DNA of 64,000 bases. Origin: Gemmatales bacterium. Lineage in GTDB: Bacteria > Planctomycetota > Planctomycetia > Gemmatales > HRBIN36. The DNA lies in NCBI GenBank assembly GCA_041640595.1, contig JBEPZY010000003.1:444342-508341 (forward strand). The letters are read 5' to 3'. Below the pieces are notes generated by a model, which saw only the letters and a list, made by a program, of their open reading frames with translations, did no database searches and was not told where the DNA came from. Below, piece after piece: positions 13,442 to 62,901 of the stretch. The stretch's first letter is position 1. Each line of letters starts with the position of its first letter. Both the position numbers and the translations under genes were made by a program.

Positions 13442-13545
13442 TCCGCAGTGGGTCACGGTATCGGTCATCAGGTGGGCAAGTGGCCCATCAAACCACTTCC
13501 CTTCGATCGCGGCGGTCTGCTGTGGATTGCGGTATCGGTCATCAG
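13442..13545. repeat. Direct-repeat doublet A (30 bp, 25/30 identical, 44-bp insert)
   Basis: 13442-13471 versus 13516-13545, sharing an exact CGGTATCGGTCATCAG. Confidence 0.65.
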
Positions 13546-13644
13546 TCCGCCGGGCATCGCTGAAAAGTGACGGGCGTCAGCTCGTCGGGGAATCCCCGAA
13601 TCGGAGAGTGTCCGCCCGGCATGGGTTAGCGGGTGCACGGTGGG

Positions 13645-14298
13645 TCAAGATTTTTTCGCGTCCAGTTCGGAGGCGGGATGAATTTGCTCTGTGGGCATCT
13701 GTGTGCGTCCCCAGGCGAACCAGGCGTTTTCGATAGCGCGGCGAAATTGCTCGTACTCTTTCACGCCGCGCAGCACCAACACTTCCTGGCTCTGGGAGCG
13801 AATTTCGAGGTCGGCCGCCTGATAGAATTCCTGTTCCGAGCCGGGCACCACCTGCACGGCCAGGCGCGGAAAATCGCCGCCCGGTTCGGTGGCGATATCC
13901 CTTAAGGCCAGTTCCCGTACCGGCCGACCCGACCAGCCTTTCAGAATGCGAATGGCTCGATTGGTCAGGACGTAGCGCGTGGCCGTTACAGGCATGATCC
14001 GCAGAAAGAAAAACGGCGCCAGCAACAACCAGGCCAGCAAAGCCATGACCGTCGCGATCGGAAGTGCCACCAGCATGGCAATGATGCTCAGCCCGGTCGG
14101 TAACCGTAAGGCCGAGCGAATCACCTGCCGCGCTGCCAGCTGGATGCTAGCGCCGAGCCGCGCCGGCGCTCCCCCCAGATAAGCCGTAACCGACGGCCAG
14201 CGTTCCGCCAGTTTCGCCTCGGCAATCTCCGGCTGTATGTTCCCCAGAATCGCCTCCGTTCGCATGTCCCGAACCTGGGGTCGGTTGCCTGGCGTCAT
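13645..14298 (-). CDS. Membrane protein with a bacterial PH-like domain
   Basis: TM hairpin followed by a TRYVLTNRAIRI..G motif. Confidence 0.6.
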   Translation of the reverse strand: MTPGNRPQVRDMRTEAILGNIQPEIAEAKLAERWPSVTAYLGGAPARLGASIQLAARQVIRSALRLPTGLSIIAMLVALPIATVMALLAWLLLAPFFFLRIMPVTATRYVLTNRAIRILKGWSGRPVRELALRDIATEPGGDFPRLAVQVVPGSEQEFYQAADLEIRSQSQEVLVLRGVKEYEQFRRAIENAWFAWGRTQMPTEQIHPASELDAKKS

Positions 14299-14441
14299 AT
14301 CGCAATTTCTCCTCGGTTCTTGCCGGCTAATGCGAGCATGTGGTTCGTGGCTATTCAGGCAAACGAAAATGTTGCAGCGTGCATCCGCATGGATTTCCCA
14401 AAATTATCGCAAAACACAAAGCCAGGGCAAGCGCCAGTATG

Positions 14442-15959
14442 TCAACGTATTTTGCGGATTGCCGATCGGCCGTACAGGGCGTACCAGGCGTGCAGCGCGA
14501 GCAACTGCATGACAAACACCAGTCCGAACAAACAGGTTACGAGGAGATTCGCCACCAGTAAAACACTCCGGTCGGGAACCAGCCCTCCCATGGTGTAGTC
14601 GCTGCTCACCAGGCCGAGCAGGTGGCCGAGCATGAGCAACAATCCAGCCCCACTCAAACAGGCGCTGCCCCAGATGGCCCACAACCGATGCCCCGAAACA
14701 AAGATTCCCAGCGCCAGTCCCGGCAAGTAGCCGCCACAGAGCCACGTCAGAATATGGAGGAGCAGGGACTGGTATTGCGGCGGCTCCAAAACTTCGGTGG
14801 CCAGCAGCAGAAGGCCCAGCAAACACCACAAAATAAACGCCCCGCTGACCAGGGTCATCACCAGAGCGGCGTCGTGCATTCGGGCTGGATGACGCAGCCA
14901 CAAACGGAAACGGTAAGCCATTTCCTGAACCGGCACCTGCACCGCTTCGCCGGCGAGAAAACGTTGCAGGTCGCCGGCCAACGCTGCTGCCGAACTGTAG
15001 CGATCGCCTGGCGACAGATGCAGACACTTCTGGCAGATGGCCACCAGTCCAGCCGGTGCTTGCGGGTTGAGCTGGCCGATGGGCACAATCGCACCGCTTC
15101 GCACCGCCTCAAAAACTTGTGCCAGGCTGCCACCGGAAACCGGCGGCTGACCCGTCAGCAGCTGGTATAAAATCGTTCCCAGCCCATACACATCCGTCCA
15201 GACGCCCAACGTCCCGCCTGCCCAGGTTTGTTCAGGGGCCATGTAAGGCGGCGTACCCGCCAGTTCGGGTGGATTATCGGAAAATCCCTGCAACCGGGCC
15301 AGACCGAAATCGGCAATCTTGGGCCGGCCGTCAGCAGTCAACAATACGTTCCCGGGTTTCAAATCCAGATGCAGCACTCCCGCTTCGTGAGCATACTGCA
15401 CTGCCTGAGCCAGGGCGAGCATGATCCGGGCTATTGCAGTGAAATCCAGAGCTGCTTCCTGTGCCAGGCGCTGGCTCAACGTTCCGCCATCCACATATTC
15501 CAGCACTAGGCACAGCCGATTCTCATATTCCAGCACGTGATACAGCTGGACGACGTTGGGATGTTGCAACCGCGCGGTGGCCTGAACTTCGGCGAGCATG
15601 TTTGTCACCGCAACGCCGGCGCGGGGCTGACGCAGTAATTTGAGCGCCACGCGGCGTCGCATATCGCCATGCCAACCCAGATACACGGCCGACATTCCGC
15701 CCTTGCCCAGTCGGGCAGCGACCCGGTATTCGCCTATGAACAACGGATCGACGGCACCTTCCTGGGGCACCGCACCCGGTTCCGAGACCTCCCTCGCTTC
15801 CGCCTCAGCGTCCGCAAAGAACGGCACGGTGGCTTCCTGTGGCGGCAAAACTTGTTCCGCGGCCATCGGCACACCAGCGTCGCCACGAACTGGCCCAGTC
15901 CCTTCCGGCAAGCCAGACCGGTTCGCTTCTGGTTGATCAGACGAAGCGGCAGCATTCAT
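14442..15959 (-). CDS. Hanks-type Ser/Thr protein kinase with C-terminal TM helices
   Basis: GKGGMSAVY, VALK, HLDLKPGNVL, DFGLA and GTPPYMAPEQ; start codon uncertain. Confidence 0.9.
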   Translation of the reverse strand: MNAAASSDQPEANRSGLPEGTGPVRGDAGVPMAAEQVLPPQEATVPFFADAEAEAREVSEPGAVPQEGAVDPLFIGEYRVAARLGKGGMSAVYLGWHGDMRRRVALKLLRQPRAGVAVTNMLAEVQATARLQHPNVVQLYHVLEYENRLCLVLEYVDGGTLSQRLAQEAALDFTAIARIMLALAQAVQYAHEAGVLHLDLKPGNVLLTADGRPKIADFGLARLQGFSDNPPELAGTPPYMAPEQTWAGGTLGVWTDVYGLGTILYQLLTGQPPVSGGSLAQVFEAVRSGAIVPIGQLNPQAPAGLVAICQKCLHLSPGDRYSSAAALAGDLQRFLAGEAVQVPVQEMAYRFRLWLRHPARMHDAALVMTLVSGAFILWCLLGLLLLATEVLEPPQYQSLLLHILTWLCGGYLPGLALGIFVSGHRLWAIWGSACLSGAGLLLMLGHLLGLVSSDYTMGGLVPDRSVLLVANLLVTCLFGLVFVMQLLALHAWYALYGRSAIRKIR

Positions 15960-18246: not shown

Positions 18247-18342
18247 GTCCCCGTATCGCTAATGCTGCACGGCGAAGTTGGTGTCTATCTCCGACCACAG
18301 TTGGCACACGAGTCCCAGCATCGCTAATGCTGCACGACGAAG
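18247..18342. repeat. Direct-repeat doublet B (31 bp, 28/31 identical, 34-bp insert)
   Basis: GTCCCCGTATCGCTAATGCTGCACGGCGAAG versus GTCCCAGCATCGCTAATGCTGCACGACGAAG. Confidence 0.85.
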
Positions 18343-19649: not shown

Positions 19650-20896
19650 CAGCCACAGGGGCTAACGGTCCCCCGTTCCTGGTTGCACACGCGACAGAGC
19701 CGTGACGAAAGCGACATTACGTCGCTAACGCGATTCATGGCACAACCACGGGGGGCTTACGCCCCCCGCTCTTGTTTGCACGACGTTTGTTCGCTGCATA
19801 AAGCGACATTGGCAGTGCACATACGCACGTCCGGCTCAAGAGCGGCGGGCGTCAGCCCGCCGTGGTTGGAGAAACGCGCTTGCAGGATGATTCGCTTCGT
19901 GTTCGGCGAACGAACGCACCTTGACAAGAGCGGCGGGCGTTAGCCCGCCGTGGTTGGGGAAACGCACTTGCAGGACGATTCGCTTTATGTTTGGCGAACG
20001 AACGTACCTTGACAAGAGCGGCGGGCGTCAGCCCGCCGTGCTGCCGAAAAACGTATCTGCAACGGCGAGCGATTTTCGCACAGCGACTACGTTTGCCCGG
20101 TGCAAGCAGCCTCACGACCACGGGGGGCTAACGCCCCCCGCTCTTGTGTTAGTGTACGGACGTCCGCCGGCGAAAAACGATTTTTTCGATGCACAAACGC
20201 ACGTCCGGCTCAAGAGCGGCGGGTGTCAGCCCGCCGTGGTTGGGGAAACGCGCTTGCAGGGCGATTCGCTTCGTGTTCGACGAACGAACGCACCTTGACA
20301 AGAGCGGCGGGCGTCAGCCCGCCGTGGGTTTGCAAACCGCATCTGCAACTGCTCTGCGCTGGATTTCCGCGTTGCAGGTTTGCATTTCGAGAACATTCCA
20401 CGGGGGGCTTACGCCCCCCGCTCTTGTGTTAGTGTACGGACGTCCGCCGGCGAAAAACGATTTTTTCGATGCACAAACGCACGTCCGGCTCAAGAGCGGC
20501 GGGCGTCAGCCCGCCGTGGTTGGGGAAACGCGCTTGCAGGGCGATTCGCTTCGTGTTCGACGAACGAACGCACGCCGACCAAGAGCGGCGGGCGTTAGCC
20601 CGCCGTGCTGCCGAAAAACGTATCTGCAACGGCGAGCGATTTTCGCACAGCGACTTACGTTTGCCCGGTGCAAGCAGCCTCACGACCACGGGGGGCTAAC
20701 GTCCCCCGCTCTTGTGTTAGTGTACGGACGTCCGCCGGCGAAAAACGATTTTTTCGATGCACAAACGCACGTCCGGCTCAAGAGCGGCGGGCGTCAGCCC
20801 GCCGTGGTTGGAGAAACGCGCTTGCAGGGCGATTCGCTTCGTGTTCGGGGAACGAACGCACGCCGACCAAGAGCGGCGGGTGTCAGCCCGCCGTGG
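19650..20896. repeat. REP/BIME-like palindrome mosaic, array 1
   Basis: Direct CAAGAGCGGCGGGCGTCAGCCCGCCGTG at 19837, 19925, 20013, 20211, 20299, 20491, 20580, 20779 and 20868; inverted variants near 19650 (degenerate), 19746, 20118, 20398 and 20686; recurring linkers. Confidence 0.92.
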
Positions 20897-20992
20897 CTCG
20901 GAACACGCGTTTGCAGCGGCGAGACCCTTGATATCTACGTCGCCATCCAGAACCGCCATCCGACTCGGAAAGCGCGTTTGCAGCGGCGAGAC
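20897..20992. repeat. Direct-repeat doublet C (29 bp, 27/29 identical, 38-bp insert)
   Basis: CTCGGAACACGCGTTTGCAGCGGCGAGAC versus CTCGGAAAGCGCGTTTGCAGCGGCGAGAC. Confidence 0.8.
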
Positions 20993-21125: not shown

Positions 21126-21215
21126 GATCCTGGCCAAGCTACGAAGAAGTTGAGGTTTGCTCATGCAAATGCAATCCCTGTAAAAGATCCTGGCCAAGCT
21201 ACGAAGGGGTTGAGG
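21126..21215. repeat. Direct-repeat doublet D (30 bp, 28/30 identical, 30-bp insert)
   Basis: GATCCTGGCCAAGCTACGAAGRRGTTGAGG at 21126 and 21186. Confidence 0.88.
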
Positions 21216-39370: not shown

Positions 39371-39466
39371 CCGACGGTCCGCTCACGTTCTGCTCTTTCC
39401 GGGAACTTCCGGAAGCCAACGCTAGCTGAGTTGCCCCCGACCACCTGCTAACGTTCTGCTCTACCC
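39371..39466. repeat. Direct-repeat doublet E (30 bp, 23/30 identical, 36-bp insert)
   Basis: 39371-39400 versus 39437-39466, with core GCTMACGTTCTGCTCT. Confidence 0.55.
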
Positions 39467-39874: not shown

Positions 39875-40270
39875 ATGTGCCGGTGGGCTGCCATAACCAT
39901 CATGGTGTGCCTGGTGATCCATGTGCCGGCGATGTGTCTGCAGGAAAAACCCAAGTCGCCGCCGCAGGTTACGCTACAGCAGATGCGAACCCTGGTGCAA
40001 CGACACCTCGAGCTAATCCAGGCAAAGAAAGCCGAGGACCTGCAGCGTCATTTCACGCCTCGCCTCCGCGAACACATTACTCCGGAGCTGTTGCAGGAGG
40101 TGCAACCCCGGCTGGCGAAAGCGAAAGTTGAGGAGCTGGTCGCGGAAATCCGCCAGCTTGAGAAAAATGGCCGACACCTGGTGATCGTTCGCAGAAACAA
40201 TGGACGGCTACTGACGGTGTTTGTCTGGCACCATGATCAATGGTTGGCCGATACGCTTTGGTTCCGTTAG
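39875..40270 (+). CDS. Small secreted hypothetical protein (NTF2-like pattern possible)
   Basis: Signal peptide; helices then beta strands ending WLADTLWFR. Confidence 0.6.
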   Translation: MCRWAAITIMVCLVIHVPAMCLQEKPKSPPQVTLQQMRTLVQRHLELIQAKKAEDLQRHFTPRLREHITPELLQEVQPRLAKAKVEELVAEIRQLEKNGRHLVIVRRNNGRLLTVFVWHHDQWLADTLWFR

Positions 40271-40339
40271 CTCTCACTATCGGTCGCCAGGGAGTATCTA
40301 GCCTTACGGTTGGCGGATAGGCTTTGGTTCCGCAAGCTC
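40242..40339. repeat. Direct-repeat doublet F (32 bp, 28/32 identical, 34-bp insert) duplicating a gene 3' end
   Basis: GGTTGGCCGATACGCTTTGGTTCCGTTAGCTC versus GGTTGGCGGATAGGCTTTGGTTCCGCAAGCTC. Confidence 0.85.
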
Positions 40340-42806: not shown

Positions 42807-42925
42807 CACACCATGCGCGATTGGCGACCAGGTAACTGTGCCATCGCCAGAATTAACCGTCCGACGGCCGCTTCCCGCTGAGCATCGGTGAGAGCGACTG
42901 GTTGGTAATCATCTGGCCTGTCAGC

Positions 42926-43750: not shown

Positions 43751-43857
43751 TTTCTGTTCGACCGCTTCCAGACCAGATGCGGCCCATGAAAACTGTCCTG
43801 GACTCGCTTAGAGAAGGCCCCAAGGTTTGTGTTCGACCGCATCAGACCAGATACGGC
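43751..43857. repeat. Direct-repeat doublet G (about 33 bp with one indel, 42-bp insert)
   Basis: TTTCTGTTCGACCGCTTCCAGACCAGATGCGGC versus TTTGTGTTCGACCGCATCAGACCAGATACGGC. Confidence 0.8.
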
Positions 43858-44256
43858 GAATGGCCAAGGGGACAATGATTCGCGCCCACTTTGAAACAGC
43901 GGCATGATGAATTATGCCGCACCCCTGATTTTGGAATGGCCGGGCACAATGGTTGGCCGACCGGTGTTTCCGGCGCTGGGCAGGCGTAATTGTGGATACC
44001 CCGGACACGATGAGCGGTGTTACCGGAGCCGCTCAAAGCCTGACACCGGAAAGACGCGATGGAATCGTTCGCCGGGCGGGAACTGCTGTCGGTGAATGTG
44101 CGTATAATGTTTGGTGGCAGACCGGTACCCGGCAGGGCTGCCGACCGGTTTCGTTTGCTGAACTTGCCGGGTTGTATTGACCAGCCAGGCACAGGAGCGT
44201 AGATTGGCGGCTAAGTTAGTGGCGTCATTATCGGCCAGCACATTCGGACAATCGCC

Positions 44257-49685: not shown

Positions 49686-50228
49686 ATGCGCAAAAGCTGG
49701 CTCATGCTGGCCCTTTTCGGATGGTGCAGTTGGTGGACCGCTGCCTGGGCACAGGACTCCGTCGTGCCGGTGCAACCGGAAATTGTCCTGGTTGACCACC
49801 ATGCGGAAGCCAAACCCGCCCCAAGTGCCTGCGCTCCCAGTTGCGCCTGCCGGCCGACATTCTGTCTGCCACGAATTTCGCTTTCAGGCCTGTTCTGTCG
49901 GCTGCAACCCTCGTGTCAACCCTGTCCGCAGCCGTGTCCGCCTTCCTGTCCCAAAGTACACGCTGCTCCGTGCTGCGGTCACCACGTTCGGCCACTCTTC
50001 TGCCGCGAACCGCAGCCCTGCCCCAGGCCAGTAGTGCATTGCCATGTGCAGGCTCCCGTTTGCCATCAACCCTGTCCGAGTTCCTGCCACCCAAGCCTGC
50101 TCGAACGCCTGCACAATCTCCTCCGCCGCGATTGCTCCGCCCCCTGCTCCGCTACGTGTGCGCCAGTAACCCCGGCCCCTGCGAAATCCGAACCGGAAAA
50201 GGCTCCCCTTCCCAAACCAGCTAAGTAA
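49686..50228 (+). CDS. Secreted Cys/Pro-rich protein
   Basis: AAGGAG RBS; signal peptide; 21 Cys in 180 aa; own terminator. Confidence 0.75.
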   Translation: MRKSWLMLALFGWCSWWTAAWAQDSVVPVQPEIVLVDHHAEAKPAPSACAPSCACRPTFCLPRISLSGLFCRLQPSCQPCPQPCPPSCPKVHAAPCCGHHVRPLFCREPQPCPRPVVHCHVQAPVCHQPCPSSCHPSLLERLHNLLRRDCSAPCSATCAPVTPAPAKSEPEKAPLPKPAK

Positions 50229-50303
50229 CTATCTTACCCTGCTCATCTCGACCCGCTAAGCAACAACGCTCAACCTGCACTAACCAGACCGTTATTCGCT
50301 CAC

Positions 50304-50327
50304 GGGCGGTACCCACCGCCCTTTTTT
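50304..50327 (+). terminator. Intrinsic terminator
   Basis: GGGCGGT-accc-ACCGCCC-TTTTTT. Confidence 0.85.
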
Positions 50328-50462
50328 GTTTACCTTCGTCAGCCCACTAAATTAATTCCAGGCCGAACACGACCTTGCCGGTTTTCCTCGACGTGCCGAT
50401 TTTATTCAACTTATCGCTCCCCTAATGACGATTGGGTATTCGGGACAACCAGGGAGCGATTT

Positions 50463-51938
50463 ATGTTAGACTCCATTTCGTCCCTGCTCTTTTCAATGTC
50501 GTGCCAGCATTTAGTGCTTGCGGCACGCAGTAGATTTATTCTGCTAAGCTCAGCCGCTACGCTCTTAGTTTTCCTGCCCGTTGCCTGTATGACCTCTGAA
50601 GCTGTACACGTTTATATACCACCTGTCTCCAGCGAACCTGCGGCTGGCCGGGATCACATCTTGACCGCTTTTCCGCCAGCTGATAATGCGCCGCTTCCCC
50701 GCGACATAACGGATGCCGACGCTGCGCTTTTCAAAGGCCCGGAACTTACGTTATCGGAGTTAATTAGTGCCGTACTGACCCGCAATCCCACACTGACTGA
50801 AATGAATGCCGCCTGGCAAGCGGTCCTCGCTCGTGTTCCCCAAATCTCCGCCTACGACGATCCCATGTTCCGCGTAACCGTCGGCCCAGGCTCTATCAGT
50901 TCCGACACTGTAGATTTTGCATATCGTCTGGAAATCAGTCAGAAAATCCCTTTTCCTGGCAAACTAAGTCTGCGCTGGGAACAAGCCACCCGCGAAGCCG
51001 ACGCTGCTGCCAGCGACTACCTCGATGCTCGCTTGCAAATCATCGAGGCGACCTGCTTGCTTTATTATGAGTACTACCTCGTTCACCGTGCCCTCGAAGT
51101 CAATCAAGAGAACCTGAAACTTTTGCAGGAAGCCCGGCGCACCGCCGAAGCCCGCGTTCGTACGGGTCAGTCGCCGCAACAGGAATTGCTCCAGATCGAA
51201 GTTGAACTTGGCAAACAACGGGAGCGTGAACTTATACTCCGCCGCACACTCACCGTAACTAAAGCACGCATCAATGCCCTGCTCCATCGCCTGCCCGATG
51301 ATCCCTTACCCCCTCCGGTTTCTCAACTTGTCCCTGCGGCGGATCTGCCGCCTCTTGAACAACTCTATAGTTCCGCCCTGCTTTATCGTCCCGATCTAAA
51401 AGCAGCACGGCAACGTTTAGAAGCCGAGCAGCTTAGTCTGGCACTTGCTGAGCGAGAATATTATCCAGACTTAGAGGTCATGGCTGCTTACGATGCCTTT
51501 TGGCAGGAACGCCCTCTGCGTACCATGATCGGATTCGGTGTTAATCTTCCGGTGCAACTGAGTCGGCGTCGCGCTGCCCTTGCTGAAAGCCTGGCTCGTA
51601 TTACTCGACGCCAGGCCGAACTAAACCGCTTGACTGACCAGATCCATCTCCAGGTGCGTGATGCCTATACGCGAGTCGAGGAGAATTCCCAGCTTTTGCA
51701 ACTGTATGACAAGCAGCTTATCCCCGCCGCTCAGGCTAACGTTCGGGAAGCCGTTGCCGCCTATACTGCCGGTCGCATTCCCCTGCTGGGCCTGCTTGAA
51801 GCGCAACGTAATCTCGTACAGTTGCGCGACCGTTACTTTGAAATTTTCGCAGATTACTATCGCTCCAGGGCTTCTTTAGAGCGGGCCGTGGGCGCTCCGC
51901 TAATCCACGACGAGAAAGCAACCCATAATCATCCCTGA
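50463..51938 (+). CDS. TolC/CusC family outer-membrane factor
   Basis: RNPTL, SQKIPFPGKL, YYPDL and LLEAQR; start uncertain. Confidence 0.88.
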   Translation: MLDSISSLLFSMSCQHLVLAARSRFILLSSAATLLVFLPVACMTSEAVHVYIPPVSSEPAAGRDHILTAFPPADNAPLPRDITDADAALFKGPELTLSELISAVLTRNPTLTEMNAAWQAVLARVPQISAYDDPMFRVTVGPGSISSDTVDFAYRLEISQKIPFPGKLSLRWEQATREADAAASDYLDARLQIIEATCLLYYEYYLVHRALEVNQENLKLLQEARRTAEARVRTGQSPQQELLQIEVELGKQRERELILRRTLTVTKARINALLHRLPDDPLPPPVSQLVPAADLPPLEQLYSSALLYRPDLKAARQRLEAEQLSLALAEREYYPDLEVMAAYDAFWQERPLRTMIGFGVNLPVQLSRRRAALAESLARITRRQAELNRLTDQIHLQVRDAYTRVEENSQLLQLYDKQLIPAAQANVREAVAAYTAGRIPLLGLLEAQRNLVQLRDRYFEIFADYYRSRASLERAVGAPLIHDEKATHNHP

Positions 51939-51975
51939 CGAGTCCTTAGTGCCACGTCCTTCATCCGGTCGGGTT

Positions 51976-54900
51976 TCACTGCCGCGACAATCCATGTATA
52001 GATTCTGGCTCTAAATCTGCGTGTTGATCGCCTGCACTAAGTGTGTGCAGTTTCAGCCACCTTGCACGCCGAACCCAATAAAACCGCACCGGTAAGAATA
52101 TGTCAACCACTTCGTCGGCAATTAATAGCCCACCCAGAACCGGCAGCGCCATCGGCGCCAGGATTTCCCCGCCTACTCCTTGTGTAAACACCATCGGAAA
52201 AATGGCCAGAATGGATACGCCTTCGGTCAAAAGTTTCGGTCGCAGGCGGTGAGCCGCTCCTTCAATCACGGCCTCGCGCAATTCTTCCAGGGACTTGATT
52301 TTTTCCAAACCTCCACGCCTTTCTATAGCATCTCGCAGGTACACCAGCATAATAATCCCTGTTTCCGTTGCCATGCCGAAGCACGCAATGAATCCCACCC
52401 ATACCGCCACGCTGAAATTCATGGGCGGCGTGTTCCAACCATATAACAACTTCGGAAACAACCATAGCATAAAGACACCCCCGGCCAGCGCTTCCGGCAC
52501 CGCTAACATCATCAACGCAGCATCCACAGCATCCTTATAGGTGAAATACAGGATGATAAAGATTAGTGCAATCACCAGGGGAAAAGCGATTCGCAGCGTT
52601 TGAGCAGCACGCAACTGGTGCTCGAATTCTCCACTCCAGCTAATGGTTACTCCTTCCGGCAACATTACTTGCTGTGCTACTATCCGCTGTGCCTCCTCGA
52701 CAAACCCGACAATATCCCTGCCCCGCACGTTGAGCGTTACCGTATTGTAGAGCCGGCCATTTTCGCTCTTGATCATCACTGGCCCTTCCACAATTTTGAC
52801 CTCAGCCACCGCACCAAGAGGAATTACACTTGGCGCAGGAATCCCATGAGGTGGCACAGTACGATGCAAATCGCGGGACCCGCCTCCCTGTCCTTCGCTG
52901 GTTACTTCCGCAGTATTAGACATTTCTAAGCCGAAACTTAGGCCCATACCAGCATTACCTGCGCGGATCGGAATGTGTCGCAGGCTCTCCTCATCTTCCC
53001 GCCAGGCACGCGCCAGGCGCACTACCACAGCATAACGATTGCGCCCATCCACAATATAGGTGGATGGTCGGCTGCCCATAACGAGTTCGATCTCCCGTGC
53101 CACATCCTCGACACTCAAACCATAACGCGCCGCCCGCACCCGATCAATCTCCATTTCCACATAGCCTTTACCCACTATGGGACTAGCTATGACGTCGGCG
53201 GCTCCTGGAATTGGCTTCAGTACCGACTCTATCTCCCTGCATATCCGATCTATCGTTTCCAGATCCGGTCCGAATACCTTGATTCCGATATCCGTGCGAA
53301 CCCCCGTGGATAACATGTCAATGCGATTAATGATCGGCATGGTAAAGATATTACTCCACCCGGGCACCTGCAACACCCGTTGCATCTCATCCGCAACTAA
53401 GTCGCCATTTTTGCCACCTTGCCTCGGCCACAGCAAAACCCACTTTCTAAACGATTCCACAGCCGCTTGCTTAATCGCTATCAGCTTATCATGTGCAGGA
53501 TCGTTCCGGCCCGCTGCACTAATATCACCATCGCGTCCCATGCGAAAGTCCTGCACATGAAGATGTCCTGCATCCTGAGAAACAAGTCCCATCGGAGCAG
53601 CAAGGCGAAGCAATTCCTCAATTGCGTACCACGTAAAGATTTCTGTTCCCTGATCGAACAGCTCCCAGTTAACCCGTTCTACCTGCTCCCGCCAGGCTCT
53701 ATCCCTGAACGTGAGCAGATCAGCAAACACCAGATCAGCTAACCTCACTGGCCTGCCGGAAATCTCCTGCTTCAGCTGAACGAGGGCATACTCGAAGTGA
53801 TATTTAGTAAGCCAGCCAAGGGCCCCAGCCAACGTTAGATAGCCCGTGAGCACCACAGTAATAATCGGTACCCATACGTACCAGCGAAAAAAGATGAGCA
53901 GGCAGAGTCCTATAAACGCGACGACGGCGAGACCCGCAAAAAACTTAGTGGGTAACAATCGAAACGGATTAGCAATTGCCAGGGCGGTCGCTGGTTCCCC
54001 GACCAGGTCGCGCTGCACTAGATCATCCGCCACTCGTAACGCTAACCGATCTATATCCTCTATAGCCGGGTGCCGTGCCAACCAGATGCCATATTCTGAA
54101 GACAGCTCTTCTGTCAATTGCTCAACTAGCCGGTTCCGTATTTTCTCATCCGCTAGGTCTCTTGCGGAAAGGGCCATTCGGTCCAAAAGATCGTTCAGGC
54201 AATATTCAACAAGACGGTGTGACAAATAGTCCTCGAACTCGCGATATCGCAGCAGGGCCAGTTGCCGCATCGCTTCATCAAAGCGTTCGAGTGCCTTTTG
54301 CGTGGCCTCGTTAGTCAAGTCCTGCGTGTGCTTAGCATCGGCATCGCCGTGTAACAATCCGTGTTCCTGCAATAAGGATAAGATGTATTTGGTCTGCCGA
54401 TGGGCATCGTGAAATTTCAAGACCCGGTGGGGCCAGAACTGGCGAGGCCGAAAATTCACATAAGTTTCTACCATATCGAGCGGCGCAGGATCGGTAGGGG
54501 TATCGGCACGACCAGCCTTGCCAGCAACTGAGGCAACTTCCGGAAAACTTCGCAGCAACCCATCTCGGTGTTTGAGATCGTCAATCGCCTGGGTTATGCT
54601 GGCGCGGGGTACGGTGATCGGCATATCCATCAAGGTACCTTCATCCAGCGGCGGAATAAACTCAACACCGATCCGGTGCTTAGGGTCTATACTGTAAATC
54701 ACCAGGCCCACCAGAAGAAGTGTTATAAACGAAACACCCTGCCACAGCAGGCCTTCGGTGAATGCTACCGTAAGCAAGGTTACCACCAGGAACGTGGCAA
54801 GGAAGAAAATTCGCCAGGCAGTTTCGGAGGCTCCCAGTCCAAAAGTTGCCTGGACAGGAAAAACCCCCGCAGCCACGATCAACATTGCCGCAAACATCCA

Positions 54901-56529
54901 CATAACTAAATTCCGACGCGGCAACGCCCAGGTCAAAAAAGGTTTGTAGATGTTAATAAGACTCCGAACGATCCAGTTCTCTTCCTCGCTGCGTAGCCTT
55001 CCCTTGATAAAGATCGGTATAAGTGCAGGAACAACTGTTACGGAAATAATTGCTACGCCAACCATGGCAAAGCTTTTCGTGAAAGCTAGCGGTTGGAAAT
55101 ATTTACCTTCTCGACCACTAAGCAGGAAAACGGGAATGAAAGAGAGCAGCATAATAAGCACGGAGAAAAAGATTGGACGTCCAACCAGACGACAGGCCGC
55201 CAGGACGTATTCCGTAGTGTCACCGACTATCTTGCGATTGCCAAAGCGGTTACGCAATGTGTGTGTGGCGTTTTCCGTCATGACGATGGCCTGGTCAACT
55301 AAGACCCCTATCGAAATGGTGATACCTGCCAGGGACATAATATTCGCCTGGATATCCACGATGTTGAGCCTGCGCAGTATCCACATCGTCAGGAAAGAGA
55401 ACAAAACCGAAAGTGGCAACGTAACACAAATCACGAACACACTGCGCACATGCACAAGCACCAGCAAAATGGCCAGCGCGGCGATAAGCATTTCGTGCCA
55501 CATGACATCCGTGAGGGTATGAATCGCTCCCTCGATCAACTGAGTGCGGTCGTAAACCGGAACAATGCGCACACCCTCAGGTAAGCCCGGCTGTATTTCG
55601 CGGATTTTTTCCTTGATTGCCTCAGTTACTCGCAACGGATTCTCACGGTGCCGCATGAGTACGATCCCGCCAACCACTTCGCTACCGTTATACTCAAAAA
55701 CACTTCGACGCAGTCCGGTACCTATCTGCACGTTAGCCACCTGGCGAATATAGATAGGTACACCGTCCCGGTAAGCGACTATCGTGTTTTCGATGTCCTC
55801 TTTCCCTCGAATCCACCCGACGCCGCGGATCAGGTATTCGGCATTGTTTTTTTGTACCACATGGCTTCCAGCGGGCATGTTGGCTTTACTTAGTGCTACA
55901 TTTAGATCGCTCAGAGTCAGACCATAGAGGCGGAGCTTTTCCGAAACCACTTCCACCTGATACTCTAGAGGCGCACCACCTAGGGCTGCTACCTGAGCTA
56001 CTCCGGGCACGGAATTAATCTGGGGAATGACATAGAACTTATTGACGGCCCACAAAGTCCCAGGGTCCTGTGGATGCAACGGGCTGGGTACCAATGCATA
56101 GGCGAAGATTTGGCCGACGGCAGTTGCGTCGGGAGCCAGCTGCGGTACCACTCCCGGAGGCAGGATGGTACTGCCGCGTATTTCATCCAGTTTCTCAAGA
56201 ACCCGCTGCCGGGCGAAGTAAAAATCCACGCCATCCTCGAACACTATAGTGATCATAGAAAATCCAAACTCCGATGATGAACGAATCGCCCGCACACCTG
56301 CCAGTCCCTGTAGTTTTAGCGATAGTGGATAGGTGACCTGATCCTCGATTTCCCTGGGACTGCGACCTATCCATTCCGTAAAGACAATTACCTGATTCTC
56401 GCTAAGATCGGGAATGGCATCGATCGGGGTTTGCAGAACAGCATAGATAGCCCACACGGTGAGTACAGCCGCCACTAATAACACGATCACGCGGTTCCGT
56501 ATTGAGTATTCAATGACGCGTTCTATCAT
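51976..56529 (-). CDS. cusA: CusA/SilA-type heavy-metal RND permease with large insertions (1517 aa)
   Basis: DAIPDLSENQVIV, GRSPREIEDQVTYPL, DPAPLDMVET, PIINRIDMLSTG and RLRPKLLT. Confidence 0.9.
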   Translation of the reverse strand: MIERVIEYSIRNRVIVLLVAAVLTVWAIYAVLQTPIDAIPDLSENQVIVFTEWIGRSPREIEDQVTYPLSLKLQGLAGVRAIRSSSEFGFSMITIVFEDGVDFYFARQRVLEKLDEIRGSTILPPGVVPQLAPDATAVGQIFAYALVPSPLHPQDPGTLWAVNKFYVIPQINSVPGVAQVAALGGAPLEYQVEVVSEKLRLYGLTLSDLNVALSKANMPAGSHVVQKNNAEYLIRGVGWIRGKEDIENTIVAYRDGVPIYIRQVANVQIGTGLRRSVFEYNGSEVVGGIVLMRHRENPLRVTEAIKEKIREIQPGLPEGVRIVPVYDRTQLIEGAIHTLTDVMWHEMLIAALAILLVLVHVRSVFVICVTLPLSVLFSFLTMWILRRLNIVDIQANIMSLAGITISIGVLVDQAIVMTENATHTLRNRFGNRKIVGDTTEYVLAACRLVGRPIFFSVLIMLLSFIPVFLLSGREGKYFQPLAFTKSFAMVGVAIISVTVVPALIPIFIKGRLRSEEENWIVRSLINIYKPFLTWALPRRNLVMWMFAAMLIVAAGVFPVQATFGLGASETAWRIFFLATFLVVTLLTVAFTEGLLWQGVSFITLLLVGLVIYSIDPKHRIGVEFIPPLDEGTLMDMPITVPRASITQAIDDLKHRDGLLRSFPEVASVAGKAGRADTPTDPAPLDMVETYVNFRPRQFWPHRVLKFHDAHRQTKYILSLLQEHGLLHGDADAKHTQDLTNEATQKALERFDEAMRQLALLRYREFEDYLSHRLVEYCLNDLLDRMALSARDLADEKIRNRLVEQLTEELSSEYGIWLARHPAIEDIDRLALRVADDLVQRDLVGEPATALAIANPFRLLPTKFFAGLAVVAFIGLCLLIFFRWYVWVPIITVVLTGYLTLAGALGWLTKYHFEYALVQLKQEISGRPVRLADLVFADLLTFRDRAWREQVERVNWELFDQGTEIFTWYAIEELLRLAAPMGLVSQDAGHLHVQDFRMGRDGDISAAGRNDPAHDKLIAIKQAAVESFRKWVLLWPRQGGKNGDLVADEMQRVLQVPGWSNIFTMPIINRIDMLSTGVRTDIGIKVFGPDLETIDRICREIESVLKPIPGAADVIASPIVGKGYVEMEIDRVRAARYGLSVEDVAREIELVMGSRPSTYIVDGRNRYAVVVRLARAWREDEESLRHIPIRAGNAGMGLSFGLEMSNTAEVTSEGQGGGSRDLHRTVPPHGIPAPSVIPLGAVAEVKIVEGPVMIKSENGRLYNTVTLNVRGRDIVGFVEEAQRIVAQQVMLPEGVTISWSGEFEHQLRAAQTLRIAFPLVIALIFIILYFTYKDAVDAALMMLAVPEALAGGVFMLWLFPKLLYGWNTPPMNFSVAVWVGFIACFGMATETGIIMLVYLRDAIERRGGLEKIKSLEELREAVIEGAAHRLRPKLLTEGVSILAIFPMVFTQGVGGEILAPMALPVLGGLLIADEVVDIFLPVRFYWVRRARWLKLHTLSAGDQHADLEPESIHGLSRQ

Positions 56530-56560
56530 GGCTATCCTCCTGAGCGCGGCGATGAATTCA

Positions 56561-58432
56561 TCATGGTCGAGAACGCTGTTCCTGCTGGCGCAGTTTCCGA
56601 ACTGTGGCCACCGTTTGTTGTGGATGTTTGCGGGCTTCTTCCACGCAACCAGAGCAACATAAGAAGACCGGCTCTCCATCGAGGATGATCTTGACTGGTG
56701 GTCCCATACTGCCGAGGCGGTTCTGCTGCTGAATAGGACAGTAGCGCTGGCGAGCAGCTAATTCACGATCGGCCTGACGGGGTAGTTTCGCCAGGTTCGC
56801 GCGAATCCATGCTTCTTCGTCATGCGCGGATGAAATGTGAACGCTCTCCTGCTGGTGGTGGCGATGCTGCAGACCGGCGGCACCGAAATATAGAGATGCC
56901 GCAGCCGGATTCAGGCGGGTCTCCGCATCCAGCAGGAATGAGCCGGCGGTAACAATAAGATCATCAGCTTCTAAGCCTGCCAACACCGGGTAATAGCCAA
57001 CACCCTGTTCATCTTCCATGCGTGGCCCTAATTGCACTAATACGGCTTCATATAGTCCCGGGCCGATTTGCCGATACACTATCTTCTGGCGACCGGTGTC
57101 AATTACCGCTAATTCAGGGACAGCCAGTAAATAACCGTGATGCAGAAGCGTCAGGTTTCCAGCAGCCCAGATGGTCGAAGGAAGCGTTGTCAGTTCGGAT
57201 AAAGGGGCGGCTGGAACCATCGAGTCCAGGAGATTAGATACGGCCAGGATCAGGGCATTACGTACTGCGACATGCTGCTGGAGTAAAGGAATCTGCCGGG
57301 GCAGAATGTTTAGTTCCACGCGGGCCGAGGTTCCCGGCCGGAGCTTATGCTGAGGATTGGGAATTTCGTAGCGGACGCGTATGGTACGAGTGTTCCAATC
57401 CAAGTGTGGGTGAATAAAGGTAAGAAGACCGGCAAATCGCTCCTCGCCCGTAGCCTGAGTCGTCGCCACTACCGGCAGGGCAAGTTGGCGGGCTTTTTCC
57501 TGGCGATGGAATACCTCCTGGGGCGGCAGATAAACTAAATCCGTCTCGTAAACCTGCCCTTCAATCCACACTGTAGAAAGGTCGGCGACATCATAAATGG
57601 GAGCGCCTTCCTCGACATACTGGCCTTCCCTGACATAACGAGTAATTACATGGCCTTCTATAGGGGAACGGATTTTTAGATGGGTGATCGGCTGATCCTG
57701 GCGAAGAATAGCGGCGATCTGATCCTCGTCAATGCCCCAGAGGCGGAGTCGCTCGAAGGCAGTCTGATAGAGGAATTGATTGCCGCTGCGTTTGGCTTCT
57801 AACAGGTTTTGTGAGGTAACGATTAACTCCGGGCTATAGAGCAATGCCAGGTCGTCGCCGGCGTGAACCATCTGTCCGGTCTGGTTAATATAGAGCTTAT
57901 CAAGACGGCCCTTGACGCGGGCGGCAATCTGTCGGAGCGCACGTTCATCGAATTCGACATAACCGAGGGTGGTAATAGTTTTATTCAGGCGGATATAGGC
58001 AACGGGCCAGGTGCGAATGCCGGCGAGGATGACACGATAAGGCGAGAGTTGCACCCGACTCAGCACCCCGGGCGGCAGGGGTTCGGGTAAGTGAAGACTC
58101 TTTTTGCGTCGGGCCAGGGGCATGTGACAGATAGGACATTCGCCGGGTTGATCGCGAACCACGTTCGGATGCATAGGGCAAAACCATTCCTGCTCGGCTG
58201 CGGTGTCCGCAACTGCGGGAGACGGGCGCGTCCATTTGCGATAGTACCCGACCAGGACATCCCAGTAAATGATCACCACGCCGATCAAAATCAGGAGCAA
58301 AATGAACCGGAGCCGGGCAAGGTTGACGAGCAAGACAAACTGAAGCCAGTACCGCCAACCCCGGCGAGGCGGTTGATCAGCTGGCATAGGATGCTGCACA
58401 GGTTGCAAAGGTTGCGAGAATGTGTCGGACAT
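56561..58432 (-). CDS. cusB: CusB-type periplasmic adaptor with an N-terminal CPMHP metal-binding domain and a C-terminal YHS/TRASH-like domain
   Basis: CPMHP...CPICHMPL, IADL/VADLSTVW-type motif, and CPI...LGSMG...LCCSGC. Confidence 0.88.
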   Translation of the reverse strand: MSDTFSQPLQPVQHPMPADQPPRRGWRYWLQFVLLVNLARLRFILLLILIGVVIIYWDVLVGYYRKWTRPSPAVADTAAEQEWFCPMHPNVVRDQPGECPICHMPLARRKKSLHLPEPLPPGVLSRVQLSPYRVILAGIRTWPVAYIRLNKTITTLGYVEFDERALRQIAARVKGRLDKLYINQTGQMVHAGDDLALLYSPELIVTSQNLLEAKRSGNQFLYQTAFERLRLWGIDEDQIAAILRQDQPITHLKIRSPIEGHVITRYVREGQYVEEGAPIYDVADLSTVWIEGQVYETDLVYLPPQEVFHRQEKARQLALPVVATTQATGEERFAGLLTFIHPHLDWNTRTIRVRYEIPNPQHKLRPGTSARVELNILPRQIPLLQQHVAVRNALILAVSNLLDSMVPAAPLSELTTLPSTIWAAGNLTLLHHGYLLAVPELAVIDTGRQKIVYRQIGPGLYEAVLVQLGPRMEDEQGVGYYPVLAGLEADDLIVTAGSFLLDAETRLNPAAASLYFGAAGLQHRHHQQESVHISSAHDEEAWIRANLAKLPRQADRELAARQRYCPIQQQNRLGSMGPPVKIILDGEPVFLCCSGCVEEARKHPQQTVATVRKLRQQEQRSRP

Positions 58433-59876: not shown

Positions 59877-59940
59877 CCGCTCCGGAAGCGCACCCCAGTA
59901 GCGGTCGCTTCGCTGGGATAAAAACTCTGGGAAGGGAGCC

Positions 59941-60321: not shown

Positions 60322-60393
60322 TATTGGCCGCCTTGCCGACACATAGCAAAACTGGGTGCGGCGACATTTTCGACAAACCAACAGGAAATCCGT

Positions 60394-61038: not shown

Positions 61039-61213
61039 GCTGCTGCGAGAGCGATTCGGTCTTGAGCGTTGGGGTGGAATCTGGTAGAGCGAAAAAGCGA
61101 CAACGCTCTCAGCGTTGTCTCAGGGAATTGCCTTGGGGGCCAACGAAACGGCGGATGCAGGCTCGCTCTGTAGAGGCCCCGGCGAGCGAGACAATCCGCG
61201 GAGGGTAAAACGT

Positions 61214-62215
61214 ATGCGGATTCGCTGGCGCGGTTTGGAGCTTCCCAGCAAGCTCACTTGTGATCGAACAACCCTGACCGATACCTACGGCAAATTCTAC
61301 TGCGAGCCCTTTGAACCGGGCTTTGCCGTAACCATAGGGAACAGTCTGCGGCGGGTGTTGCTTTCCAGCCTGGAAGGAAGCGCGGTTACGCGCGTCAAGA
61401 TTGAGGGAGTAGCCCACGAAATTACCACCATTCCCGGCGTGGTGGAAGATGTAACCGACATCATCCTCAACATCAAAAGCCTGGTGGTCAAAAACACCAG
61501 CGACCAGCCGCAAACCATTTACATTCGCCGGGAAGAACGTGGGATCGTCCGTGCCGCGGACATCATCACCACCGAATCGGTGCACATTATCAACCCGGAA
61601 CACATTATTGCCACGTTGACCGAAGATGTTCGCTTCAACGTGGAAATGACCGTGGAAAACGGCCGTGGTTACCGCACTGCCGAGGAAAACGCCGGGAAGG
61701 ATCGGGAAATCGGCGTGATTCCGCTCGACGCCAGTTTTTCGCCGGTCGTGCGTGTGCGGTTCAGCACCGAGGAAACGCGGGTGGGTCAGCGCACCAATTA
61801 CGAACGGCTCATTCTGGAAATCTGGACGAATGGTACGATCACTCCGCAACTGGCTATCGTCGAGGCTGCCAAAATCCTCCGCAAGCATCTCAACCCATTT
61901 ATCGAGTACACTGACCTGGGCCCGGAAGTGCCTGCCGTAGAGGAACACGCCGAGGCACCCTCGGGGCCGTTCGTGGACCTCGAACTGATGCGCAAGCTCG
62001 ACATGAGCACCTCGGAGTTCGGCCTGGACTTGCGAGTGTGCAATACCCTGGAATCGCACGGCATCCTGACTATTCGCGATCTCGTCGCTCATACCGAGGA
62101 TGAGCTGCTGCAGATTCGCAATTTCGGAGAGACGACGCTGAAGTACGTCAAGGATAAACTGGCCGAAGCCGGGCTCCATCTGGGCATGAAAGTACCCGGA
62201 GCCCGCACCAGCTGA
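61214..62215 (+). CDS. rpoA: RNA polymerase alpha subunit
   Basis: [19 protein letters not shown] and IRNFGETTL. Confidence 0.97.
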
Positions 62216-62286
62216 TACACGGAAAGGCAAGTCCAGCTGGCCTCGGTCGGTCATGCGAATGCTGGGCGTCAACCGGAGAATTCACC

Positions 62287-62820
62287 ATGCGCCATCAAAA
62301 AGCCGGTCGCAAACTCGGACGCAATGCTGCCCATCGCCGCGCACTGATGCGTAACCTGGCCTGGGCATTGTTCCAGCACGAGCGAGTGGTCACCACAGTG
62401 GCCAAAGCCAAGGAAGTTCGCCGTTTCGTCGAGCGGATTATCACGATCGCGCGCAAAGATACCCTGCATGCGCGGCGACTGGTGCTGGCACGGATGGGCG
62501 GGAAAAAACGCGTCTGGGTTCAGCAAAAGGATGGCCGAGAAATCGAGGTGGACCTGTTCCAGAAATTGTTCCGTGAAATCGCTCCGCGTTATCGAGAGCG
62601 TCCGGGCGGTTACACGCGGGTGGTGAAATTGACCCGCCGTAGAGTTGGCGATGCCGCCCCACTGGCCGTCATCGAACTGGTCAAAGAACCTTACGAGCCG
62701 AAAGAAAAACGCCAGCCTTCCACCCAGGAGGTCGTCCGTCCGGAGGTCACATCACCACCGCCGACCGAATCCTCCTCCGCTCCTGGCTCATCGGAATCCT
62801 CGGCTCCCTCCGCACCATAA
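62287..62820 (+). CDS. rplQ: 50S ribosomal protein L17 with a Ser/Pro-rich tail
   Basis: MRHQKAGRKLGR, TTVAKAKE and RPGGYTR. Confidence 0.97.
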   Translation: MRHQKAGRKLGRNAAHRRALMRNLAWALFQHERVVTTVAKAKEVRRFVERIITIARKDTLHARRLVLARMGGKKRVWVQQKDGREIEVDLFQKLFREIAPRYRERPGGYTRVVKLTRRRVGDAAPLAVIELVKEPYEPKEKRQPSTQEVVRPEVTSPPPTESSSAPGSSESSAPSAP

Positions 62821-62901
62821 TCGAAAGTTTGCCCGCCACTGCACCGACGTGCGAGAACTACTGCCACGTTCCCTCTGCACCATAATCGAAAGTTGGCCCG
62901 C
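62805..62901. repeat. Direct-repeat doublet H (32 bp, 30/32 identical, 33-bp insert) duplicating the rplQ stop region
   Basis: TCCCTCCGCACCATAATCGAAAGTTTGCCCGC versus TCCCTCTGCACCATAATCGAAAGTTGGCCCGC. Confidence 0.9.

What the first reader, a model, noticed from the sequence alone, without database searches (positions are those of the whole stretch)
13442..62901. Dispersed repeat-spacer-repeat doublets with CRISPR-like geometry: possible fossil record of ectopic spacer integration
Seen: eight doublets start at 13442, 18247, 20897, 21126, 39371, 40242, 43751 and 62805. Each is a 29-33 bp direct repeat around a unique 30-44 bp insert, with periods of 74, 65, 67, 60, 66, 66, 75 and 65 bp. The repeats are unrelated to each other, so they are not one repeat family. 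They look like local target-site duplications, and two of them copy pre-existing gene ends. The copies differ by about 2-7 changes, suggesting events of different ages. Known: Cas1-Cas2 inserts a spacer of about 30-45 bp while duplicating a repeat-length target, and it can do so off-target. IS target duplications are far shorter. Inference: a Cas1-like or unknown integrase has repeatedly written short DNA fragments into this chromosome. No cas gene is present in the window.
Basis: partly seen in the sequence, partly recalled or inferred. Interest (0 to 1): 0.85.

Follow-up and report, generated by a model that had tools for sequence, protein, structure and literature searches.

The report
Off-target CRISPR spacer insertion scars
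The eight repeat-insert-repeat units are real, and they belong to about 240 such scars across this genome whose sizes match its two CRISPR arrays, so the cell's own CRISPR integrases have most likely pasted spacers into ordinary DNA many times.

Summary
All eight doublets exist. Outside the true arrays the genome holds 249 clean units. Their periods form two sharp peaks, 65-68 (115) and 72-76 (134), against about 1.5 per other period value and 0 in a shuffled genome.

The genome has two large CRISPR arrays. One has a 30-nt repeat and period 66, beside type I-B and III-B cas genes. The other has a 37-nt repeat and period 74, beside cas2, a reverse transcriptase gene and cas1. The duplicated length follows the period: median 30 against 36.

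Eleven doublets lie in multicopy elements whose paralogues show single-copy empty sites shorter by exactly one period. One ectopic insert overlaps a native spacer. The window's 40242 insert is a piece of the cell's own 23S rRNA gene.

This is natural off-target Cas1-Cas2 integration, known from the laboratory, at a scale my paper searches did not find described. The scan flagged the same pattern on another piece of this genome and read it as a copying error. Empty sites in orthologues or other strains could not be shown.

The parts
13435..13545 (.). Doublet of the 37-nt class: copy 13435-13471, insert 13472-13508 (37 nt), copy 13509-13545; period 74; 29 of 37 alike
   Evidence: Lies between two minus-strand ORFs. 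This gap is 370 bp here against 103-128 bp in three same-genus genomes.
18247..18342 (.). Doublet of the 30-nt class: copy 18247-18277 (31), insert 18278-18311 (34), copy 18312-18342; period 65; 28 of 31 alike
20897..20992 (.). Doublet of the 30-nt class: copy 20897-20925 (29), insert 20926-20963 (38), copy 20964-20992; period 67; 27 of 29 alike. Copy 1 overlaps the last unit of a REP-like hairpin array.
21126..21215 (.). Atypical doublet: copy 21126-21155 (30), insert 21156-21185 (30), copy 21186-21215; period 60; 28 of 30 alike. The duplication is of native length but the insert is 6 nt shorter than native spacers.
39371..39462 (.). Older doublet of the 30-nt class: copy 39371-39396 (26 still alike, 21 of 26), insert to 39436, copy 39437-39462; period 66. 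Lies between an ECF sigma factor gene (-) and a 198-aa ORF (+).
40242..40339 (.). Doublet of the 30-nt class: copy 40242-40273 (32), insert 40274-40307 (34), copy 40308-40339; period 66. The insert equals the antisense of the genome's own 23S rRNA gene at G000:C5:166631-166664 (33 of 34). Copy 1 holds the end of ORF 39674-40270.
43751..43862 (.). Doublet of the 37-nt class: copy 43751-43788, copy 43826-43862, 31 of 38 columns alike with one 1-nt indel; period 75/74. Starts 7 nt after ORF 42902-43744.
62805..62901 (.). Doublet of the 30-nt class: copy 62805-62836 (32), insert 62837-62869 (33), copy 62870-62901; period 65; 30 of 32 alike. Copy 1 holds the 3' end of rplQ (L17, 62287-62820).

Best explanation
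The doublets are scars of off-target (ectopic) spacer integration by the genome's own two Cas1-Cas2 integrases. Each integrase makes two staggered strand transfers into non-CRISPR DNA, one native repeat length apart: 30 nt for the type I-B module and 37 nt for the reverse-transcriptase-linked module. It joins a spacer-sized fragment of 34-40 nt between the cuts. Gap repair then duplicates the target, which gives target-insert-target with a period of about 66 or 74. Sites are chosen with only weak sequence preference: a G at the 5' border on each strand, and some likeness to the native repeat ends. Scars survive almost only between genes. A few sites were hit again and grew into small new arrays. 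Shown here: the geometry, its match to both arrays, the filled and empty paralogous sites, the sources of some inserts, and the presence of the cas genes. Inferred: that Cas1-Cas2 did the catalysis, and that the scars are neutral.
For: (1) Outside the true arrays, clean doublets number 115 at periods 65-68 and 134 at periods 72-76. The mean over 70 other period values is 1.46. A shuffled genome gave 0.
(2) The native arrays have a 30-nt repeat with period 65-68 (mode 66) and a 37-nt repeat with period 72-76 (mode 74).
(3) The duplicated length tracks the period. The median is 30 against 36. Counts of R 27-33 versus R 34-45 are 75/11 for the short-period class and 30/87 for the long-period class, Fisher p 3e-19.
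(4) The class A period distribution does not differ from that of the native array (chi-square p 0.41).
(5) Only two cas1 genes are in the genome, each with a cas2 and beside one of the arrays.
(6) Of 300 doublets tested, 11 have paralogous copies with one target copy and a length difference equal to the period. A twelfth is off by 1 nt. Alignment A1 shows a 65-nt surplus made of one target copy plus one insert.
(7) The insert of G000:C2:174386 matches native spacer C8:12372-12402 at 30 of 31 nt, shifted by 2-3 nt.
(8) Some inserts trace to the cell's own DNA: the 23S rRNA gene (window 40242), C1:732923 (33 of 33) and C3:406663 (34 of 36). With plausible borders, two of these three have the native PAM CCG.
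(9) Border bases: G is first and C is last in 46-61% of sites against 27-36% at random intergenic sites. Likeness to the native repeats exceeds random (10.1 against 8.3 matches, and 9.5 against 8.8). This is the same kind of preference reported for P. furiosus Cas1-Cas2 off-target sites in vitro (PMC6698737, passages read).
(10) Samples from relatives: G002 and G003 carry the 37-nt type of array, and their 3 ectopic doublets all have period 74. G015, where no cas1 was found, has 0 in 400 kb.
Against: No empty site was obtained in an orthologue or another strain. Same-genus genomes are only 72-78% identical. The listed rows for four other runs showed no 65-75-nt skips.

The duplicated length has a long lower tail. 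A few perfect doublets combine R 29-32 with period 72-75, which fits neither native geometry.

The class B period distribution differs from the native one (p 0.002).

Only 1 of 261 inserts overlaps a native spacer. Three young inserts had no exact match in the viral collection.

The 23S-derived insert has CCC, not the native CC[AGT] PAM.

Density is very uneven within the genome: 0 in contig C6, and 0 in C1:400-900 kb.

G003 has a I-B cas1, yet its 376-kb sample showed no period-66 doublet. One does lie beside its cas1.

G008 has an array but no scars in 400 kb, so having the system is not enough.
Confidence: 0.87

Rival explanations
1. A lineage-specific copying error, such as template switching or slippage with a fixed step. 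It would add about 65-75 nt made of a short copy plus a compensating duplication, independent of CRISPR.
For: The border between duplication and insert is fuzzy, so length trade-offs can be read into the data. A few perfect doublets have R 29-32 with period 72-75. The scars look neutral and lie between genes. Some inserts are copies of the genome's own DNA.
Against: There are two discrete peaks, not one, and both the period and the duplicated length of each equal one native array. Of the 126 doublets with at most 2 mismatches, 2 have inserts traced to a unique place in the cell's own DNA. One insert overlaps a native spacer. Period and array geometry agree in G002 and G003, and there are no doublets in G015, where no cas1 was found.
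Confidence: 0.05
2. Ordinary tandem duplications or minisatellites of 60-75 bp, of which only one half stayed alike.
For: In 62805 some likeness continues past the repeat (9 of 17 further bases). Real coding repeats of 66-75 nt also occur in the genome (LRR, Met/Gly-rich) and contaminate the raw counts.
Against: The inserts are unlike the DNA that follows or precedes the unit; this was a filter. Paralogous empty sites lack exactly one target copy plus one unrelated insert. Slippage does not predict two sharp peaks.
Confidence: 0.03
3. A different mobile element or integrase (casposon-like, MITE or IS) that makes long target duplications.
For: Several doublets sit in IS copies or REP-like elements and were copied along with them.
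Against: The inserts form no family. 60 of 300 have any other match, and most of those are copies of the whole locus or low-complexity DNA. Only two Cas1-family genes are in the genome, both beside arrays. The element sizes of 30-44 nt are those of spacers.
Confidence: 0.02
4. The doublets are selected, working elements, such as paired protein-binding sites or small-RNA units, and not scars.
For: 13 loci carry two or more spacers. Two young doublets are shared by strains from other studies.
Against: The repeats share no sequence. Density per kb is the same in convergent, divergent and tandem gaps. The two copies drift apart, from 0 to 8 mismatches.
Confidence: 0.03

Closest known systems
Non-canonical (off-target) spacer integration, 'neo-CRISPR' loci: Nivala, Shipman and Church 2018, Nat Microbiol 3:310. 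The paper itself is not held. It is known here only through what 10.1101/148544, PMC7054753 and PMC9456107 say of it (passages read).
   Same: A spacer-sized insert flanked by a duplication of non-CRISPR DNA one repeat long. Repeated hits at a site can seed a new array.
   Different: There, E. coli type I-E with over-produced Cas1-Cas2, rare events detected by deep sequencing, and sites near IHF-like motifs. For nature, only 'circumstantial evidence' in two other species is reported (10.1101/148544). Here there are about 240 fixed natural events from two systems (I-B and RT-linked) in one genome.
In vitro off-target integration by Pyrococcus furiosus Cas1-Cas2 (PMC6698737; passages read)
   Same: Paired integration sites spaced by the repeat length (30 bp). 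Strong preference for G at the site, and likeness to the repeat borders (G1, T2).
   Different: That was a plasmid assay with purified proteins, so there was no inheritance and no selection. The preference seen here is weaker.
Repeat-length ruler of the Haloarcula hispanica type I-B system (PMC4872114; only the listing and the start of the abstract seen)
   Same: A 30-bp repeat is duplicated accurately. The native I-B repeat here also holds AACC and GTGGG.
   Different: There, mid-repeat motifs are required for accuracy. The ectopic targets here lack them, yet most are still duplicated over about 30 nt.
Ectopic spacer acquisition inside arrays of Streptococcus thermophilus (PMC7999890, PMC5338259; listing and abstracts only)
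   Same: Integration away from the leader-proximal repeat.
   Different: Those events use true CRISPR repeats inside the array. These use unrelated chromosomal DNA.
Intergenic minisatellites / VNTRs
   Same: Short direct repeats between genes that may gain or lose units.
   Different: VNTR units repeat as a whole and have no unique insert. Their periods are not tied to the repeat and spacer lengths of the cell's CRISPR arrays.

Membership tests
Off-target Cas1-Cas2 spacer integration (neo-CRISPR unit) | The target duplication has the length of the native CRISPR repeat | tested here: met
   Median R is 30 for periods 65-68 and 36 for periods 72-76, against native repeats of 30 and 37 nt. There is a lower tail, and a few outliers exist.
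Off-target Cas1-Cas2 spacer integration (neo-CRISPR unit) | The insert has the length of native spacers | tested here: met
   Period modes are 66 and 74 in both the ectopic and the native sets. Class A is indistinguishable from native (p 0.41). Class B is shifted somewhat (p 0.002). Native spacers are 35-38 nt.
Off-target Cas1-Cas2 spacer integration (neo-CRISPR unit) | cas1 and cas2 are present in the genome, with arrays that show activity | tested here: met
   There are two cas1 and two cas2 genes, with open frames, beside arrays of 337 and 244 counted spacers. 31 I-B spacers, 28 of them in the leader-proximal fifth of the array, match contig C15.
Off-target Cas1-Cas2 spacer integration (neo-CRISPR unit) | An empty site differs from the filled site by exactly one target copy plus one insert | tested here: met
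   11 of 300 doublets meet this through paralogous copies; alignment A1 is an example. Empty sites in orthologues or strains were not obtained.
Off-target Cas1-Cas2 spacer integration (neo-CRISPR unit) | The inserts are drawn from the same protospacer pool and PAM as the native spacers | tested here: inconclusive
   1 of 261 inserts overlaps a native spacer. One duplicated insert resembles the targeted element C15, with no PAM there. Of 3 self-derived inserts, 2 have CCG and 1 has CCC.
Off-target Cas1-Cas2 spacer integration (neo-CRISPR unit) | Catalysis by Cas1-Cas2 | not testable with these tools
   This needs integration assays or cas1 mutants.
Bona fide CRISPR array | Three or more copies of one conserved repeat, with a leader and crRNA processing | tested here: not met
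   242 of 255 loci have two copies only, and the repeats are unrelated between loci. 13 loci have 3-6 copies. Processing was not tested.
Tandem duplication / VNTR | The whole unit is repeated head to tail | tested here: not met
   The inserts are unlike the neighbouring DNA (filter), and the empty sites lack the insert.
Transposable element with target-site duplication (IS, MITE, casposon) | The inserted sequences are members of one family with defined ends | tested here: not met
   The inserts are unique apart from copied loci. There is no third Cas1-family gene.

The most novel reading that the evidence does not exclude
In this hot-spring planctomycete two different CRISPR integrases, one of them linked to a reverse transcriptase, have written spacers all over the chromosome. 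They did so often enough to make up about 2% of its intergenic DNA and to start at least 13 multi-spacer 'neo-arrays', one carried and amplified inside an IS element. The genome would then be a natural record of how new CRISPR arrays are born. Ectopic spacers are probably not turned into guides, so they would also be an interference-blind sample of what the integrases capture. Of the 126 young inserts, only 2 trace to a unique place in the host's own DNA, which would mean capture itself is strongly biased to foreign DNA.
Probability: 0.5. Interest if true: 0.9.

Novelty: new variant of a known kind. Interest (0 to 1): 0.8.

Why it matters
Off-target spacer integration is known from over-expression experiments and from test-tube assays. 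It is usually treated as rare and harmful. According to the passages I read, natural evidence is limited to circumstantial cases. A genome that keeps about 240 datable scars from two systems offers several things:
- an estimate of the off-target load of CRISPR adaptation in nature;
- the intrinsic target rules of a I-B and an RT-linked integrase, read from many natural sites;
- direct examples of array birth, from one spacer up to five;
- a set of captured fragments that interference has not filtered;
- a concrete source of growth in intergenic DNA.

Tried and rejected
- Orthologous empty sites. Same-genus genomes match only at 72-78% in coding DNA, so the intergenic DNA cannot be aligned. Only gap lengths could be compared.
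- Protein-level empty site. The in-gene doublet G000:C3:60599 lies in a variable linker, and four orthologues give no clean answer. The second candidate gene is a kinase with many paralogues, and its doublets lie in an unconserved tail.
- Strain polymorphism. Contigs of four runs from four studies were laid on a 19-kb stretch holding 7 doublets. No 65-75-nt skip was among the 15 joints listed of 101. Contigs break at the repeats. Two doublets are spanned by other strains' contigs, so they are shared.
- Metagenome loci. The only close locus is 99.99% identical to the window.
- Viral origin. The cores of three young inserts gave no exact match in the viral contig collection.
- In-frame test. 14 of the 17 'inside gene' doublets have periods divisible by 3. 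Most of these are coding repeats or doubtful ORFs, so I draw nothing from the count.
- Base composition. Class A inserts (GC 0.543) resemble native I-B spacers (0.551) more than intergenic DNA (0.571). Class B does not discriminate. This is weak evidence.
- Leader-like flank. There is hardly any excess likeness to the native leader ends: 5.7 against 5.2 matches of 20, and 5.6 against 5.3.
- The Nivala et al. paper could not be read.
- My gene map is a crude ORF scorer that% of the genome coding, so the genic and intergenic shares are approximate.
Full report
OBSERVATION. The repeat finder returned seven of them. The eighth, at 43751, appears in direct alignment and aligns over 38 columns with 31 matches and one 1-nt indel. 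The periods are 74, 65, 67, 60, 66, 66, 75 and 65. The duplicated lengths are 37, 31, 29, 30, 26, 32, about 37-38 and 32 nt. The repeats are unrelated to one another. By my ORF map, all eight lie between genes or on gene ends. Copy 1 of 40242 holds the end of ORF 39674-40270, and copy 1 of 62805 holds the end of rplQ.

GENOME-WIDE PATTERN. The window is G000:C3:444342-508341, in an assembly of 4.45 Mb and 42 contigs. I scanned the whole genome for short-range direct repeats, using 11-nt seeds and ungapped extension. The scan gave a huge excess at periods 60-79. Part of that excess is true CRISPR arrays:
- C1:359749-377936 has a 37-nt repeat and periods 72-76, with mode 74.
- C8:2-21980, continuing on C10, has a 30-nt repeat and periods 65-68, with mode 66.
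- C20 holds a small third array.

With the arrays removed, two sharp peaks remain. I then kept only pairs with a duplicated length (R) of 24-45 nt, identity of at least 80%, and an insert unlike the DNA before and after the unit. That leaves 115 units at periods 65-68 and 134 at periods 72-76. The mean over 70 other period values is 1.46. A third peak at 87-93 belongs to a REP-like hairpin family. A shuffled genome gave 0 hits.

The duplicated length follows the period. The median is 30 nt for the short-period class and 36 nt for the long-period class. Counts of R 27-33 against R 34-45 are 75/11 and 30/87, Fisher p 3e-19. So both the duplication and the insert copy the geometry of one or the other native array. 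The class A period distribution cannot be told from that of the native array (p 0.41). Class B has more units at 72 and 75 than the native array (p 0.002).

About ten of the 249 are coding repeats or copies that travelled with duplicated elements. I therefore speak of roughly 240 units.

THE MACHINERY. Only two Cas1-family genes are in the genome, and each has a cas2 and lies beside an array. Next to the 30-nt array are cas2, cas1 (best NCBIfam model: type I-B), cas4, cas3, cas5 and cas7, followed by cmr1-6 and cas10 (type III-B). Directly upstream of the 37-nt array lie cas2, a 550-aa reverse transcriptase of the group II intron kind, and cas1. The RT match is below its model's cut-off.

The I-B system looks active. 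31 of its 337 counted spacers match a 9.6-kb, 50%-GC contig of the bin (C15), and 28 of those 31 lie in the leader-proximal fifth of the array. They show a 5'-CC[A/G/T] PAM and a 28:3 strand bias. C15 encodes mostly unknown proteins and gives a weak, sub-threshold hit to protein-primed type B polymerases.

INSERTION, NOT DUPLICATION. I compared 300 doublets, each with 200-nt flanks, against the genome. Eleven lie in multicopy elements (IS copies or REP-like arrays) whose other copies carry a single target copy. In those cases the length difference equals the period exactly: 64, 65, 66, 73, 74 or 75 nt. A twelfth is off by one nucleotide. In alignment A1 the flanks match closely (mean column identity 81% with the gap counted), and the filled site has 65 extra bases, made of one target copy plus an unrelated insert.

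WHERE THE INSERTS COME FROM. Of 300 inserts, 60 have another match in the genome. Most of these are copies of the whole locus or low-complexity DNA. The informative cases are these:
- The insert at C2:174386 overlaps native spacer C8:12372-12402, matching 30 of 31 nt with the ends shifted by 2-3 nt. It is the only such case among 261 inserts.
- The insert of window doublet 40242 is 33 of 34 identical to the antisense of the genome's own 23S rRNA gene.
- Two further inserts match unique chromosomal places: C1:732923 (33 of 33) and C3:406663 (34 of 36).
- With borders placed where the sequence allows, two of these three self-derived protospacers carry CCG, the native PAM. The 23S one carries CCC.
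- One duplicated insert resembles C15 at about 30 of 35 nt, with no PAM there.

Of the 126 doublets with at most two mismatches between their copies, 2 have an insert traced to a unique place in the cell's own DNA.

SITE CHOICE AND FATE. G is the first base, and C the last, of the duplicated segment in 42-46% of cases. After orienting each site against the native repeat, these figures are 49-61%, against 27-36% at random intergenic sites. T at the second position and A at the second-to-last position are also enriched. Overall likeness to the native repeats is modest but above random: 10.1 against 8.3 matches of 30 for class A, and 9.5 against 8.8 for class B. One perfect class B site ends in GATTGAAAC, like the native repeat. 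In vitro, P. furiosus Cas1-Cas2 shows the same kind of rule: 30-bp spacing, G at the site, and G1/T2 (PMC6698737, passages).

By my crude gene map (79% coding), 192 of 246 units are fully intergenic, 37 touch a gene end and 17 are inside ORFs. Most of those 17 are coding repeats or doubtful ORFs. Density per kb is alike in tandem, divergent and convergent gaps, at 0.24-0.30. The units add up to 17.3 kb, about 2% of the intergenic DNA.

The two copies of a unit differ by 0 to 8 bases. Twenty units are perfect. That suggests a long-running and possibly ongoing process.

Of 255 loci, 242 hold one insert and 13 hold two to five. Those 13 include a four-repeat locus at C1:328964. They also include a unit inside an IS-like transposase gene that is present at two places and was amplified to eight repeats at C8:39280-39870.

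RELATIVES. Of 20 relatives, 12 have a cas1 match.
- G002 and G001 (same genus) carry a 37-nt array of the same family. G008 has a 36-nt repeat with period 66.
- G002, 391 kb sampled: 1 ectopic doublet, period 74, R 38.
- G003, 376 kb sampled: 2 ectopic doublets, both period 74. A period-67 doublet lies beside its I-B cas1.
- G008, 400 kb sampled: none.
- G015, no cas1 found, 400 kb sampled: none.

Equal samples of G000 contigs C2 and C3 give 59 and 32. So the geometry follows the arrays, but the high load is particular to this genome.

The load is also uneven within the genome. C6 (256 kb) has 0, C7 has 2 and C1:400-900 kb has 0. The REP-like hairpins are missing from C6 and C7 as well. I cannot explain this.

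WHAT COULD NOT BE SHOWN. I obtained no empty site in an orthologue or another strain, and no viral match for three young inserts. Two young doublets are present in contigs of strains from other studies, so even these are not very recent.

COMPARISON WITH WHAT IS KNOWN. Off-target integration that creates 'neo-CRISPR' units was shown in E. coli with over-produced Cas1-Cas2 (Nivala et al. 2018). That paper is not held, and I know it only from citing passages. One of those passages says natural evidence is circumstantial and limited to two other species.

My searches returned no report of a natural genome with many such events, or of off-target events by an RT-linked module. I saw listings and abstracts, and read passages in four papers. 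This holds only for the library searched.

The scan's own notes hold single-event cases in other genomes. For another piece of this same genome, note e1-2367128 read the pattern as a neutral copying error. The match to the two arrays argues against that reading. The organism is called a planctomycete (Gemmatales) in those notes, which I did not verify. The runs that hold it are mostly labelled hot-spring or microbial-mat metagenomes.

VERDICT. The best explanation is ectopic integration by the native I-B and RT-linked Cas1-Cas2 modules (confidence 0.87). The mechanism is of a known kind. The scale, the two-system signature and the natural neo-arrays are new as far as I could search.

Noticed in passing
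window 4344-4616, 19837-20916, 63041-63645: Arrays of a REP-like hairpin element (core GGCGGGC-loop-GCCCGCC) with periods of 39, 88-91 and 91 nt. The genome holds several hundred copies. Several ectopic doublets sit inside copies of this element. No copy was counted in contigs C6 and C7.
   Followed up: partly
G000:C15:1-9585 (L097): A 9.6-kb contig with 50% GC (genome about 58%) is matched by 31 I-B spacers, 28 of them in the leader-proximal fifth of the array, with a 5'-CC[AGT] PAM and a 28:3 strand bias. This is the signature of primed adaptation. It is probably a virus or plasmid. Its proteins are mostly unknown, apart from a matrixin-like peptidase and a weak protein-primed PolB hit.
   Followed up: partly
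G000:C8:39280-39870 and G000:C1:329450-329620: A two-spacer neo-array lies inside an IS-like transposase gene. It is present at two places, and at one of them it was amplified in 148-nt steps to eight repeats. A mobile element is therefore carrying an ectopic mini-array.
   Followed up: partly
G000:C3:328735-328965: A nested unit. A degenerate copy of the native 30-nt repeat flanks a spacer that resembles C15 (with a CCG PAM there). The whole is itself flanked by a duplication of about 30 nt, 132 nt apart (twice 66). This may be an ectopic insert that looked like a repeat and was then used as a target.
   Followed up: partly
G000 contigs C6, C7 and C1:400000-900000: These parts hold almost no ectopic doublets (0, 2 and 0). 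Contigs C2, C3, C8, C9 and C10 hold 0.3-0.56 per kb of intergenic DNA. The cause is unknown.
   Followed up: partly
window 50000-58000: GC drops to 51-55% with a strong negative GC skew. The stretch holds a 1567-aa ORF on the minus strand (51976-56679). I did not examine it.
   Followed up: no
G000:C9:139927: 23 of 24 bases of this doublet's insert match the I-B cas1 gene itself (C8:23069-23092). This is a partial match and may be chance.
   Followed up: no
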